Origin: a virus
Lineage: Duplodnaviria > Heunggongvirae > Uroviricota > Caudoviricetes
Virus record (IMG/VR): IMGVR_UViG_2522572023_000011
Length of the DNA: 43,570 bases
Reading direction: 5' to 3' (one strand)
Numbering within the stretch: position 1 is the first letter of the stretch; each line of letters opens with the position of its first letter. Positions 33,001-36,000 of this stretch are shown in pieces. The position numbers were made by a program.

Positions 33001-36000
33001 GGTCTGCCTTCGGATGATTCAGCGTACTCATATCCTGCACATCATGCAGACAGTGGTCAGCCGGAATAATATCGTTATATCTGCAGGCAGCCCCGCCCGG
33101 CGTCACTGTACTGCGGCGCGCCAGCTGTTTAATGCGCGGATCCGGAGCATCGTAAGAATCCGGTAACGGAAGCCCTTCACCGTAGGCCATGCCGTTGGAC
33201 TGTCCGGCAAGCACAACCACGTAGAACCAGTCCGGCTCAGATGAAGGGCCGACCTGTGGATCTCCTTCAATAGCCACCGCCTGCATCAGTGTGTACGGCG
33301 TAATGGCAACCGGTCCGCCGTATGGCTGCCAGCCCTCTTTCAGTTTGTGTGTCAGCTTTTCCGCAAGGTCTGACGGCGACGCCGCCCTGACAACATCATA
33401 ATGTTTAATCGACATCGAATTTCTCCCGTGTAGAGGAACAGAGTTAAAAAGCCGGAAGCGGAATCAAATCACAGGATGACCATCTGCCAGTGGCAGGTCA
33501 TAAAAAAAAGGCTGCGCAATGCGCAGCCAGAACTCACAAGGAAAATGATAAAAGGAATAACACTAGTGATGTACGCATGGCGCCTCCCGCTAAGTTCTGC
33601 AATGATCAAACAGAACTCGCTACGTGCCCTTAAAACTCGATCATTTAGCCCCTCCAAGGAGGATTCACCATGCGGTTGATTTTTTAATAAACAGTAAACA
33701 AAAAAATCAAGCATTATGCAGGCTGTTTCTTTTTATCACCGGCCACAGCAATACCACAATGCCGCAGACCAGAGCGCCATCAGTCAGTACCAACATTATC
33801 CTGCTGGTGAAATCCATCATCACCATCACTAAAAGCAGGATCACAACAGCAAGCAGACACAGTTTATAAAACAATGTTCAGAAAACGCATTCAGCATGCC
33901 TAAGGTTCTATTCCTACGAATAGCCAACTTGCAACTTAAAATATTATTTATGCAGCCAATTAAATTCTGGTCCTTACAATATCAACCTGAAGATTCTTAT
34001 CTTGTGCTGATTGATAAATCACAAACCTTTTACTACCTGCATTGAAAGAAGTAGACAAAACCAGACAATTATCATAACGAGCAAGAACATAATACCAACC
34101 ATCATTATAATTAATCATTTCATATTCTTTCTTAAACTGCGGTTTGTAATATCCTGTCAGAAATGAAAAAAGCCAGAAATATGCCACAAAAGCAATCATC
34201 ACAATCTCAAAAAAATGTTTTTTTATAAATGGCTTATCATAGAAGCATGATACCGATAAAAATCGCCCATAAGATCTTATCGAAATTGTAACCGCCAGCG
34301 CAATCGCTGCTGACAGTAGCAAAAGAGGTACCTGAATCTTCTGTCTCAATATAGAAAACTCAATAATTGCCGGCACAAACAATAATTCCACAGCAAAATA
34401 AAGGCGAAATACATTTAGCTCTTGCATAGAATGTTTTCTTTTCACTGCGAAAAAGAATACAACACCAATACCCCAACCGATAAGAAATATAGCAATGACG
34501 ATAACTGCAAAAAATAAACTTCTGGCAACATCATCAACACCTGCACCTACAATCCACCATGGGAAGCCGTAGTAAAAAGAAGTACCCCATCCATAGAAAT
34601 AAGCACTCCCCCATCCAAGGCATCCCATGTAGGCAATAAAAAGTGAAGAACTCCTGAGCAGCGCACCATCCTTCATAACCACCCCAATACAAGATGATAA
34701 CATTGGCTTACAACTCATAACAAAAGCAATTCAATGCCGTCAAGAGGTTACAGGCTAAAAAAACTCTATTACATTGCAGTCAGCATGTTTACTACACAAA
34801 TACAATTCAGAGCATAAAAACTACTCGGCGGCAGGTTATTGAGACTCATCAATGACATGTAAAAAACGCCCATTATTGGTGTCAAGTTTCCCCAAAGTTA
34901 TTCAAAAAGTCAATATTATGCCGTTAATATGTTGCCATCCGTGGCAATCATGGCGCTAACGTGTGATCGCATTCAAAATGTTGTCTGCGATTGACTCTTC
35001 CTTGTGGCATTGCACAACCAGAGCGTCATACAGCGGCTTAACAGTGCGTGACCAGGTGGGTTGGGTAAGGTTTGGGATTAGCATCGTCACAGCGCGATAT
35101 GCGGCGCTTGCTGGCATTCTTGAATAACCGACGCCTTTACATCTTCCGCACTCTTTCTCAGCAACTATCCCCCACTGCTCTGTTTTGGCTATATCAACCG
35201 CACGGCCTGTACCGTGGCAATCTCTGCATCTTGCGCCCGGCGTAGCGGCACTACGGCAATAATCCGCATAAGCGAATGTTGCGAGCACTTGCAGTACCTT
35301 TGCCTTAGTATTTCCTTCAAGCTTTGCCACGCCACGGTATTTCCCCGATACCTTGTGTGCAAATTGCATCAGATAGTTGATAGCCTTTTGTTTGTCGTTC
35401 TGGCTGAGTTCGTGCTTACCACAGAATACAGCCATTCCGAATCCGGCTTGTGATTGCGCCATCCCCATAGCAGCCATCACATCAGTACCGGAAAGAGAGT
35501 CAGAAGCCGTGGCCCGTGGTGAGTCGCTCATCATCGGGCTTTTTGGCGAATGAAATTTAGCTACGCTTTCGAGTCTCATGCGCCTTCTCCCTGTACCTGA
35601 ATCAATGTGAGGTTTCCGCAGAACACTGCGCCAGTATCGATATACATCTGGTTGGCAAATTTGAGTGGTTTCACTGCTGGCGTATGACCAAAGATGAACG
35701 TGTCCGCGCCTTTGATTTCTTTCACGATCCCGTCTTGTGAGTTGCTGATTCGTTCGCGGTTCCAGATTACCTGCTGATGATCAACTGGCTTTCCAAACTC
35801 GTATTTATCACAAGGATAATCGGCGTGGCAGATGACATATTTTTTTCCTTTACTCACCAGTTCGATGATTAACGGAAGTTCATCTGCTTTATGGGCAAGA
35901 GCTTTAGCCAGAATTTCTTTGTCGTAATCGAGATTAAAGAACCAGCCACCGCCATTAAGCAGCCAGTGATTGACGTTTCCACGCTCTGATAAGCCATCAA

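What the first reader, a model, noticed from the sequence alone, without database searches (positions are those of the whole stretch)
33960..34718. Polytopic membrane protein occupies the locus where Stx phages carry stxAB; no stx genes or tRNAs present
The late region has the Stx-phage layout (Q, pR', cargo, NanS-p-like esterase, S, R, ant-like, Rz/Rz1), but the slot directly downstream of pR' holds a single AT-rich gene encoding a roughly 240-250-aa multi-pass membrane protein rather than stxA/stxB. A gene here would be transcribed at high level on Q-dependent late induction. Membrane proteins at phage cargo sites are often superinfection-exclusion or abortive-infection factors, or host-interaction factors.
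Basis: partly seen in the sequence, partly recalled or inferred. Interest (0 to 1): 0.6.

Follow-up and report, generated by a model that had tools for sequence, protein, structure and literature searches.

The report
TfpB-family membrane protein as phage cargo
The gene is real and functional: a five-helix inner-membrane protein of the catalogued but uncharacterised TfpB/STM1630 family, carried with a small partner gene in the prophage slot where Shiga-toxin phages carry stx, and identical to a gene of classical phage 434, so it is a known object whose function is still unknown.

Summary
Observation confirmed. Window 33960..34718 (-) is an intact ORF. The conserved start is M15 (ATG 34676), giving 238 aa. 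It lies between a lambda-type Q/pR' and the NanS-p esterase, the interval that holds stxAB in Stx phages. The window has no stx and no tRNA, only ssrA tmRNA.

The protein is not novel. It is 100% identical to phage 434 CPT_434_68 and occurs in 692 of 5,426 complete E. coli genomes. It belongs to Pfam PF27470 "TfpB", PHROG 1521 and RefSeq's "STM1630 family". It is under strong purifying selection (dN/dS 0.05-0.09). The AlphaFold model (pLDDT 81) has five TM helices and a C-terminal beta-domain, with no informative fold match.

The slot holds more than one gene: the protein always travels with a DUF3927 mini-protein, followed by an STnc100-like sRNA and a strong terminator.

Relatives sit beside eltAB on ETEC plasmids, on Shigella pINV, between steB and sseJ in Salmonella, between pilin genes in Moraxella, and alone in Pasteurellaceae and Neisseria.

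Most likely it is a lysogenic-conversion envelope factor rather than a phage-reproduction gene. Superinfection exclusion remains an untested rival. In lambda-Q variants the upstream terminator is degraded, so Q-independent expression from pR' is plausible.

The parts
34956..35579 (-). Antiterminator Q, lambda type (207 aa)
   Evidence: PF03589, E = 4e-58. 202/207 identical to lambda Q.
34869..34913 (-). Late promoter pR' of lambda type: -35 TTGACT (34913..34908), 17-nt spacer, -10 GAAACT (34890..34885), start near 34878, then the -10-like pause element AATAAT-GGG
   Evidence: Aligns with lambda pR' up to about +16, where homology to lambda ends. Q/pR'-only relatives HK446 and IME10 stop matching at about 34869, and HK446 annotates a promoter there. 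Activity is inferred, not measured.
34813..34840 (-). Degraded remnant of the intrinsic terminator that precedes the gene in phage 434
   Evidence: 434 has AAACCCGCUGCCGAGUGGGUUUUUUUU, an 8-bp stem with z = -2.06. The window has AAUAACCUGCCGCCGAGUAGUUUUUAUGC, with no stem and z = +0.41. The degraded form is in about 50 lambda-Q loci and the intact form in about 34 Q82-type loci.
34694..34743 (-). Promoter-like block that travels with the gene: TTGACG (34743..34738)-N18-TGtTATGAG, overlapping TTGTTA-18-TGtTATCAT (34723..34694)
   Evidence: Consensus scan. The block begins exactly at CTCTTGACG, 67 nt before the ATG, in the phage copies and in the ETEC LT-adjacent paralog, whose further-upstream flank is unrelated. 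Function is not shown.
33960..34676 (-). TfpB/STM1630-family inner-membrane protein, 238 aa from M15 (the ORF is open back to 34718)
   Evidence: PHROG 1521 E = 2e-154; PF27470 on all homologs; 100% identical to phage 434 CPT_434_68; dN/dS 0.05-0.09. AF2 gives five helices (10-36, 47-78, 89-111, 116-136, 149-181) and a beta-domain at 184-235.
33707..33874 (-). DUF3927 small two-helix membrane protein ('TciB' in the phage 434 and JLK-2012 annotations), the constant downstream partner
   Evidence: PF13064, E = 1.4e-13. Directly downstream of the membrane-protein gene in every viral contig that extends far enough, about 79 of 80. In other phages it is paired with a TerB-like TciA instead.
33499..33703 (-). 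STnc100-like sRNA candidate; it overlaps the 'third small ORF' that phage 434 annotates as a 62-aa membrane protein
   Evidence: Rfam RF02076, full-length model match, 41.4 bits (gathering 47), E = 4e-07.
33500..33528 (-). Strong intrinsic terminator (GGCUGCGC-AUU-GCGCAGCC + U8), the first convincing terminator downstream of pR'
   Evidence: Terminator scan. Fold -17.7 kcal/mol, z = -3.66.
31562..33415 (-). NanS-p-type sialate O-acetylesterase; homology with Stx1 phages resumes here, marking the right boundary of the cargo slot
   Evidence: SASA + DUF1737 + DUF6645. Stx1-phage homology begins at query 2893, which is window ~33408. Same gene order in YYZ-2008.
31197..31412 (-). Class II (P21-type) holin, the start of the lysis cassette
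   Evidence: PF04971. RefSeq annotation of the source genome.

Best explanation
**What it is (shown).** The ORF encodes a functional 238-aa inner-membrane protein of the TfpB/STM1630 family (Pfam PF27470, PHROG 1521). It has five transmembrane helices, a very conserved aromatic/glycine-rich first helix (AYMGxLGWGSAYFYGWGxSxYYGFPWW) and a small C-terminal beta-domain. With a DUF3927 mini-membrane protein it forms a mobile, AT-rich cargo cassette (a moron). The cassette sits right after Q/pR' of lambdoid prophages, in the interval that carries stxAB in Stx phages. It moves independently of Q type and of the esterase.

**How it is expressed (inferred).** The gene lies in the late transcript, so Q antitermination must raise it on induction. 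In lambda-Q variants such as this window, the terminator between pR' and the gene has decayed. The first strong terminator comes only after the cassette, at 33528..33500. pR' is constitutively active in lysogens, so unmodified polymerase should transcribe the cassette without Q, as if it occupied the place of lambda 6S RNA or StxS. A conserved promoter-like block carried with the gene gives a second Q-independent route. H-NS silencing of this AT-rich DNA is likely by analogy with STM1630.

**What it does (inferred, least certain).** It acts in the envelope of the lysogen as a lysogenic-conversion or host-association factor, not as a phage-reproduction function.

My confidence is about 0.95 for identity and architecture, about 0.5 for the expression model and about 0.35-0.4 for the functional class.
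For: **Identity**
- PHROG 1521, E = 2e-154.
- PF27470 'TfpB' on every homolog, including the 100%-identical cluster.
- RefSeq 'STM1630 family protein'.
- 100% identical to phage 434 CPT_434_68.
- Moraxella 'protein tfpB' is a member.

**Functional gene**
- dN/dS 0.05-0.09 in unsaturated pairs.
- uniform 236-238 aa length and conserved motifs down to about 15-25% identity.

**Structure**
- pLDDT 80.7, pTM 0.73.

**Cassette and slot**
- in 80 viral contigs the gene is always just downstream of lambda-type or 82-type Q and followed by DUF3927; the esterase is optional.
- homology breakpoints at about 34869 and about 33408.
- stxAB occupies the same interval.
- alternative cargo (TerB-like TciA + DUF3927, methylase, TA-like genes).
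- GC 36% against 52%.

**Expression**
- lambda Q and pR'.
- terminator intact in Q82-type loci and degraded in lambda-Q loci; strong terminator only at 33528..33500.
- promoter-like block conserved even in the ETEC paralog.
- PMC7547250: PR' is constitutively active in lambda and in Stx lysogens and is normally stopped at tR'.

**Host-side function**
- orthologs kept at one syntenic chromosomal site in Salmonella subspecies and Citrobacter rodentium under purifying selection.
- paralogs next to eltAB/STb on ETEC plasmids and on Shigella pINV.
- lone genes among housekeeping genes in Pasteurellaceae and Neisseria, so the protein works without any phage.
- STM1630 is H-NS-bound and induced in SPI-2 medium and in macrophages. 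Mutants were reported attenuated in calves and chickens. Deletion changed intramacrophage replication and motility.
Against: - The STM1630 phenotypes are weak, partly unreproduced (PMC4534456), and come from a protein only 46% identical.
- The absence of a terminator is a folding prediction. Rho-dependent or weak termination, the sigma70-dependent pause and H-NS could all still keep the gene silent in lysogens.
- The window's -10 (GAAACT) is poorer than lambda's TAAATT.
- The promoter-like block has imperfect -10 hexamers.
- Association with virulence loci could simply reflect shared mobile-DNA neighbourhoods.
- Membrane topology is ambiguous. The positive-inside tally is 7.6 against 4.1 in favour of N-in/C-out, but a K-rich segment follows TM5.
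Confidence: 0.45

Rival explanations
1. Superinfection exclusion or another anti-phage function. The inner-membrane protein, perhaps with DUF3927, blocks genome entry or aborts infection by competing phages, and so protects the lysogen.
For: It is a prophage-borne inner-membrane protein in a cargo hotspot that also holds a methylase and TA-like genes in other phages. It is paired with a small membrane protein. It is plausibly expressed in the lysogen. From general knowledge, several prophage exclusion factors are small or polytopic inner-membrane proteins (P22 SieA, T4 Imm, HK97 gp15).
Against: No PADLOC model matches. Carrier genomes typically hold 2 and up to 3 nearly identical copies in different lambdoid prophages, so it does not prevent polylysogeny by its own kind. 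Orthologs are conserved under strong purifying selection at fixed chromosomal sites across Salmonella subspecies, and as lone genes among housekeeping genes in Pasteurellaceae and Neisseria. That is unusual for fast-turnover defence genes. The allele is almost invariant: at least 99% identical in 679 of 692 genomes.
Confidence: 0.25
2. A late lytic-cycle accessory. The protein is made mainly after Q antitermination and modifies the inner membrane to tune holin/pinholin timing or help release, acting for the phage rather than the lysogen.
For: It lies in the late operon, immediately upstream of the holin-endolysin-spanin cassette and co-oriented with it. It is carried by viable phages 434 and 2B8.
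Against: Most lambdoid phages lack it; only 3 of 50,697 phage records carry it. Family members are retained far from any lysis genes on plasmids, chromosomes and in non-phage contexts. The AT-rich composition and own promoter-like block are moron hallmarks.
Confidence: 0.1
3. A type IV pilus/filament-related membrane factor, as the family name suggests. It modulates pilus biogenesis, which could also change phage or DNA uptake.
For: The Moraxella member lies between oppositely oriented type IV pilin genes. Outside Enterobacterales the family is found in Moraxella, Neisseria and Pasteurellaceae. From general knowledge these are all piliated, naturally competent groups.
Against: The pilin linkage is seen only in Moraxella. 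The Neisseria, Mannheimia, Haemophilus, Aggregatibacter and Glaesserella copies have no pilus genes nearby. No similarity to any known pilus-machinery protein was found.
Confidence: 0.07
4. A non-functional hitch-hiker or remnant that is simply carried along with the Q-S region.
For: No function is known. RefSeq mostly calls it 'hypothetical protein'.
Against: The ORF is intact in 36%-GC DNA. dN/dS is 0.05-0.09. Length and motifs are conserved across orders of bacteria. The model is confident.
Confidence: 0.03

Closest known systems
Phage 434 CPT_434_68 'putative membrane protein' (OL657226.1), and the same gene in phage 2B8
   Same: 100% (434) and 98% (2B8) protein identity. Same order: Q - gene - DUF3927 ('TciB') - small ORF/terminator - SASA esterase - holin.
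   Different: 434 uses a Q82-like antiterminator and keeps an intact terminator upstream of the gene. The window has lambda Q/pR' and a degraded terminator. 434 annotators chose the M6 start (247 aa).
Salmonella Typhimurium STM1630 (namesake of RefSeq's 'STM1630 family protein')
   Same: Same family (PF27470), same 238-aa length and motifs, AT-rich horizontally acquired DNA, adjacent to virulence genes.
   Different: Only about 46% identical. Chromosomal, between steB and sseJ, with no Q, DUF3927 or phage genes. It has its own mapped promoter about 200 nt upstream. The reported phenotypes (SPI-2/macrophage induction, attenuation in calves and chickens, hypermotility) have not been tested for the phage copy.
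Moraxella TfpB (namesake of Pfam PF27470)
   Same: Family member found by profile search. Same size and conserved N-terminal and C-terminal motifs.
   Different: About 25-30% identity. It lies between invertible type IV pilin genes, not in a phage. Its function is also unknown. My recollection of the original 1990-91 papers could not be checked because they are not held.
stxAB cargo of Stx-converting lambdoid phages
   Same: Same genomic slot between Q/pR' and nanS-p, same orientation, same dependence of late transcription on Q.
   Different: No sequence or functional relation. Stx is a secreted AB5 toxin, often preceded by tRNAs and a functional tR'. None of the Stx-phage records in the phage collection carries this membrane protein.
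TciA (TerB-like) + DUF3927 cassette of phages JLK-2012 and PPyecE_EH1910
   Same: Same slot and the same DUF3927 downstream partner.
   Different: The upstream partner is a soluble TerB-domain protein, not a polytopic TfpB-family protein. One viral contig carries both cassettes in tandem (L029).
lambda 6S RNA / StxS, the short pR' transcript ended at tR'
   Same: Same position directly downstream of a constitutively active pR' (PMC7547250).
   Different: Here the first strong terminator is about 1.37 kb downstream. The Q-independent transcript would then be an mRNA for two membrane proteins plus an sRNA-like 3' end, not a short RNA. This is inference only.
Prophage inner-membrane exclusion proteins (P22 SieA, HK97 gp15, T4 Imm), recalled from general knowledge
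   Same: Prophage-encoded inner-membrane proteins expressed as morons.
   Different: No sequence, profile or fold similarity was detected to anything in PADLOC, Pfam or PDB. No exclusion phenotype is known.

Membership tests
Pfam PF27470 'TfpB' / RefSeq 'STM1630 family protein' | Significant match to the family model | tested here: met
   The local Pfam copy lacks the model (0 hits). The precomputed PF27470 hit is on all 108 homologs, including the 100%-identical cluster P0001, and the model is named TfpB. RefSeq names the identical 238-aa protein WP_001299184.1 'STM1630 family protein'. The local NCBIfam release has no such model.
Pfam PF27470 'TfpB' / RefSeq 'STM1630 family protein' | Homology to the namesakes (Salmonella STM1630, Moraxella TfpB) over the full length | tested here: met
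   The Salmonella cluster P0074 is 46% identical over 100% of the query, lies beside sseJ, and the supplement lists STM1630 as a 717-bp gene next to sseJ. The Moraxella 'protein tfpB' P0226 was recovered by a profile of the non-enteric clade, E = 3.5e-73. That clade was itself found with the enteric profile.
Pfam PF27470 'TfpB' / RefSeq 'STM1630 family protein' | Shared architecture: about 235-260 aa, aromatic/Gly-rich first helix, five TM helices, C-terminal beta-domain | tested here: met
   Alignments A2, A3 and A4. AF2 model pLDDT 80.7.
PHROG 1521 (phage protein family, unknown function) | Profile match over the whole profile | tested here: met
   E = 2.1e-154, profile positions 1-222 of 222.
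Phage moron (cargo gene) | Inserted between genes that are adjacent, or differently filled, in related phages | tested here: met
   Homology breakpoints at about 34869 and about 33408. The slot holds stxAB, TciA+DUF3927, a methylase or nothing in relatives.
Phage moron (cargo gene) | Base composition distinct from the flanking phage genes | tested here: met
   36.4% GC against 50.8% (Q), 55.5% (nanS-p) and 51.7% (window).
Phage moron (cargo gene) | Own promoter | tested here: inconclusive
   Promoter-like hexamers. A conserved block starting at TTGACG is shared with the ETEC paralog. The number of promoter-like sites in the region is not above the shuffle expectation (3 against 4.6), and no transcript data exist.
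Phage moron (cargo gene) | Own terminator downstream | tested here: met
   Strong intrinsic terminator at 33528..33500, z = -3.66. It lies after DUF3927 and the STnc100-like segment.
Known anti-phage defence / superinfection-exclusion systems | Similarity to a described defence protein | tested here: not met
   No PADLOC hit at E <= 1 for the protein or for DUF3927. No Pfam or PDB similarity.
Known anti-phage defence / superinfection-exclusion systems | Protection of the host against phage infection | not testable with these tools
   This needs phage challenge assays.
Stx-converting phage cargo | stxA/stxB between Q and the lysis genes | tested here: not met
   tblastn of StxA and StxB against the window gives best E = 1.2 and 6.9. 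No tRNAs were found.

The most novel reading that the evidence does not exclude
The TfpB/STM1630 family may be an unrecognised, horizontally mobile envelope determinant with a fold not seen in solved structures. Animal-associated Gram-negative bacteria would repeatedly co-inherit it with toxins, effectors and pilins: the stx slot, eltAB/STb, steB-sseJ, Shigella pINV, and Moraxella tfpQ/I. Its role could be a new kind of colonisation factor or a new membrane-level phage-exclusion factor. In lambda-Q-type prophages it would be expressed in the lysogen because tR' has been lost. That would turn the '6S RNA/StxS' position downstream of the always-on pR' into an expression site for lysogenic-conversion genes.
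Probability: 0.2. Interest if true: 0.6.

Novelty: already known. Interest (0 to 1): 0.33.

Why it matters
About one in eight complete E. coli genomes, including O157:H7 and O145 STEC, carries one to three almost invariant copies of this gene in the most strongly induced part of lambdoid prophages. Relatives sit beside LT/STb, on the Shigella invasion plasmid and between Salmonella SPI-2 effector genes. No one has assigned a function to the family.

A defined phenotype, whether envelope or colonisation factor or phage exclusion, would explain what non-Stx lambdoid prophages contribute from the 'toxin slot'. It would also annotate thousands of genomes at once.

The terminator-decay observation gives a simple, testable route by which cargo in this slot can escape Q control. 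That is relevant to how stx-slot genes are expressed in lysogens.

Tried and rejected
**Sequence-family searches**
- Local Pfam-A, NCBIfam and PADLOC scans of the protein found no hits. The family accession and name came only from precomputed annotations.

**Structure**
- Foldseek against viral structures found nothing at E < 0.05.
- A profile search of PDB sequences found 0 hits.
- The afdb50 library was unavailable.

**Literature**
- 'TfpB' searches returned chemistry and anaesthesia acronyms, the unrelated Acinetobacter PilB-like ATPase TfpB, and the Tfpb pilus class.
- The original Moraxella papers are not held.
- No paper on the phage 434 genome was found, and there was nothing useful on DUF3927.

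**Ideas rejected**
- A link to LT-II prophages: LT-II lies after the lysozyme gene, not after Q.
- A pilus link as a general property: it holds only in Moraxella.
- A hidden stx or a second copy of the gene in the window: none.

**Left unresolved**
- Membrane topology from charge counting alone is ambiguous.
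Full report
**1.

Window 33960..34718 (minus strand) is an uninterrupted 252-codon ORF. The DNA is 36% GC against 52% for the window. I estimate the chance of no stop in 252 random codons at this composition as about 1e-8.

Every full-length homolog begins at the residue equivalent to M15 (ATG 34676, preceded by GGGGTGG) and is 236-238 aa long. The true product is therefore most likely 238 aa. RefSeq uses both the 238-aa and a 247-aa start.

- Q
- the ORF
- a SASA/DUF1737/DUF6645 esterase (NanS-p type)
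- a P21-type holin
- lysozyme
- a P22_AR_N Ant-like protein
- Rz

This rests. ARAGORN finds no tRNA, only ssrA tmRNA at 698..1060, which is probably the prophage attachment site. StxA and StxB give no match anywhere in the window. The window is 100% identical to E. coli O145:H28 RM13516.

**2. The slot is the stx slot, and it is a defined replaceable interval**

Q here is lambda Q (202/207 identical). The sequence after its stop codon aligns with lambda pR' through about +16: -35 TTGACT, 17-nt spacer, -10, and a -10-like pause element followed by GGG. Homology to lambda then ends. Phages that share only Q/pR' (HK446, IME10) stop matching at window ~34869. Stx1 phages resume matching at ~33408, the start of the esterase gene.

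In Stx1 phage YYZ-2008 the same interval reads Q - stxA - stxB - small ORF - esterase - holin. Other phages fill it differently:
- tRNAs + TciA (TerB domain) + DUF3927
- a methylase, a TA-like pair and TciA + DUF3927

**3. The slot does not hold a single gene**

Directly downstream lies a 55-aa DUF3927 protein (33707..33874; PF13064, E = 1.4e-13). After it comes a stretch (33499..33703) that matches the whole Rfam STnc100 sRNA model. The match scores E = 4e-07 and 41.4 bits, just under the gathering score of 47. It ends in the only strong intrinsic terminator of the region, at 33528..33500 (z = -3.66).

In 80 IMG/VR viral contigs that encode the identical protein, the gene is always immediately downstream of Q, which is either lambda-type or 82-type. 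DUF3927 follows wherever the contig extends far enough. The esterase is present in some contigs and absent in others. The conserved mobile unit is therefore membrane protein + DUF3927, with the sRNA-like tail.

**4. Identity: catalogued, but function unknown**

- The protein is 100% identical to CPT_434_68 ('putative membrane protein') of classical phage 434 and 98% identical to a protein of phage 2B8. These are the only three hits among 50,697 phage records, and none is an Stx phage.
- The gene is present in 692 of 5,426 complete E. coli genomes. It is at least 99% identical in 679 of them. Carriers have a median of 2 copies and at most 3, and they include O157:H7.
- It matches PHROG 1521 (E = 2e-154, unknown function).
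- My local Pfam, NCBIfam and PADLOC copies give nothing.
- Every homolog in the 5.8-billion-protein search carries the precomputed accession PF27470, whose name is 'TfpB'. RefSeq names the identical protein 'STM1630 family protein'.
- The family is small: 71 cluster representatives in 1.84 billion proteins.

**5. It is a functional gene**

| Comparison | dN/dS |
|---|---|
| Window vs E. albertii / Escherichia sp. copies (dS 0.25-0.31) | 0.05-0.09 |
| Among Salmonella subspecies orthologs | 0.05-0.07 |

Length and motifs persist down to about 15-25% identity. The conserved motifs are AY-x-Y-G-W-G...Y-G-x-P-W-W...I-A-R-S-L at the N-terminus, Y-K-P-Q-x-K-K-E-Y after the last helix, and YYVL...ILS...F in the tail.

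**6. Structure**

A 34-sequence alignment gave a good AlphaFold2 model (pLDDT 80.7, pTM 0.73). It has helices at 10-36, 47-78, 89-111, 116-136 and 149-181, and a five-stranded beta-domain at 184-235.

No search found an informative relative:
- Foldseek against viral models gives nothing.
- A PDB sequence-profile search gives nothing.

The family-wide positive-inside count favours N-in/C-out, with the beta-domain periplasmic (7.6 against 4.1 K+R). However, the K-rich segment after TM5 argues the other way, so topology is unresolved.

**7. Where relatives live**

| Relative | Identity to window protein | Context |
|---|---|---|
| E. coli paralog | 59% | ~870 bp upstream of and divergent from eltA on porcine ETEC plasmids such as pUMNK88_Ent, in an IS-bounded islet with EAST1 and STb |
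| Shigella paralog | 56% | Invasion plasmid pINV, 106 plasmids, IS-flanked; one record annotates it 'TfpB protein' |
| Salmonella STM1630 | 46% | Chromosomal, beside sseJ (between steB and sseJ per PMC6785131) |
| Citrobacter rodentium ortholog | 66% | Same chromosomal neighbourhood as Salmonella, beside lpxR; phage 434 also carries lpxR next to its Q region |
| Pasteurellaceae (H. ducreyi, Aggregatibacter, Glaesserella, Mannheimia) and Neisseria | about 25-34% | Lone gene among housekeeping genes |
| Moraxella 'protein tfpB' | about 25-30% | Between oppositely oriented type IV pilin genes |

The protein therefore functions without a phage and without DUF3927. It has been retained for long periods in several animal-associated lineages.

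**8. Experimental hints from the Salmonella ortholog**

STM1630 has the following reported properties:
- It is of unknown function and absent from S. Typhi.
- It is H-NS-bound.
- It is expressed in SPI-2-inducing medium and inside macrophages.
- It is silenced by a -10 mutation in ST313.
- Signature-tagged mutants were reported attenuated in calves and chickens.
- The 4/74 deletion replicated more in macrophages.

These points come from PMC6785131 S1 Text. A deletion was hypermotile in one screen (PMC4219756). A follow-up study questioned such phenotypes as possible polar effects (PMC4534456). The phenotypes are weak, and they apply to a protein only 46% identical.

**9. Expression model (inferred)**

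Two features suggest Q-independent expression as well.

First, phage 434 and all Q82-type loci have a clean terminator (AAACCCGCUGCCGAGUGGG-U8) between pR' and the gene. In the window and in about 50 other lambda-Q loci the homologous stretch has lost its stem (z = +0.41), and lambda's own tR' is absent. pR' is constitutively active in lambda and in Stx lysogens and is normally stopped at tR' (PMC7547250). Unmodified polymerase could therefore run about 1.37 kb to the strong terminator at 33528..33500, transcribing the whole cassette.

Second, a conserved block starting exactly at CTCTTGACG, 67 nt before the ATG, with TG-extended -10-like hexamers, is shared by the phage copies and by the ETEC paralog, whose further-upstream flank is unrelated.

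There are caveats:
- The window's -10 is weaker than lambda's.
- Promoter-like sites in the region are not more frequent than in shuffles.
- H-NS silencing is likely.
- No transcript data were examined.

**10. Function: best guess and rivals**

I favour a lysogenic-conversion envelope or host-association role at about 0.35-0.4. Three observations support it:
- Family members persist under purifying selection outside phages.
- They recur in virulence-associated mobile DNA.
- The Salmonella member is infection-regulated.

Superinfection exclusion (about 0.25) remains plausible for a prophage inner-membrane protein in a hotspot that also carries a methylase and TA-like genes. It has no positive support, though. 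There is no PADLOC hit. Carriers hold 2-3 copies in different lambdoid prophages. The allele is nearly invariant. Orthologs are stable chromosomal genes.

The remaining rivals are weaker:
- A late lytic accessory role (about 0.1) is disfavoured by the non-phage members.
- A pilus-related role (about 0.07) rests on the Moraxella context only.
- A non-functional remnant (about 0.03) is contradicted by the selection analysis.

**11. Verdict**

The finding is real and correctly located, and the slot analogy with stx is right. The object is already catalogued: it is identical to a phage 434 gene and belongs to Pfam TfpB, PHROG 1521 and RefSeq's STM1630 family. It is part of a two-gene cassette plus sRNA, not a lone gene.

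Its function is an open question of moderate interest. Two points appear worth testing:
- the terminator decay in lambda-Q-type prophages, which predicts Q-independent expression of stx-slot cargo;
- the recurrent placement of this family next to toxins, effectors and pilins in several pathogens.

Noticed in passing
window 33499..33703 (-): Full-length match to Rfam sRNA family STnc100 (RF02076; 41.4 bits against gathering 47, E = 4e-07), ending at the strong terminator 33528..33500. The same stretch is annotated as a 62-aa 'putative membrane protein' in phage 434 and as an opposite-strand pseudogene in RefSeq. It also contains a 14-codon ORF (MRTSLVLFLLSFSL, ATG at 33578) behind a strong GGGAGG site.
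   Followed up: partly
window 37936..38826 (+) and 38880..39707 (+): Two AT-rich (about 31-39% GC) ORFs of 296 and 275 aa with no Pfam match. They are on the strand opposite to the phage nin-region genes, inserted between the HNH/NinG genes and NinE. This is a second cargo islet in the prophage. RefSeq calls both hypothetical.
   Followed up: partly
window 698..1060 (+): ssrA tmRNA gene (tag ANDENYALAA) near the left end of the window. The lambdoid prophage is probably integrated at ssrA.
   Followed up: no
window 34813..34840 (-); L001 3878..3905: The terminator upstream of the membrane-protein gene comes in two allelic states that track the Q type. It is intact in all Q82-type loci (about 34) and has a destroyed stem in all lambda-Q loci (about 50).
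   Followed up: yes
L001 1708..2667 (phage 434) and L107 4863..5823 (Citrobacter rodentium): Phage 434 carries an lpxR lipid A deacylase gene next to its Q region. The C. rodentium chromosomal TfpB-family gene sits directly beside a (split) lpxR. The chromosomal islets in Citrobacter and Salmonella may therefore be remnants of a 434-like Q-region cargo block.
   Followed up: no
L029 (IMGVR_UViG_2675903368_000011) 3367..9078: One viral contig carries both cassette types in tandem: membrane protein-DUF3927-partial esterase, then TciA(TerB-like)-DUF3927-esterase. This suggests recombination between esterase copies shuffles stx-slot cargo.
   Followed up: no
L117 (pUMNK88_Ent) 2487..8426; L116 (pCP301) 4501..5217: TfpB-family paralogs sit about 870 bp upstream of and divergent from eltAB in an IS-bounded LT/EAST1/STb islet on porcine ETEC plasmids. 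They also occur as an IS-flanked orphan on 106 Shigella invasion plasmids.
   Followed up: partly
window 34676..34718 (-): Start-codon annotation is inconsistent between records for the identical gene: 238 aa (M15), 247 aa (M6) or 252 aa (M1). Homolog alignment supports M15.
   Followed up: yes
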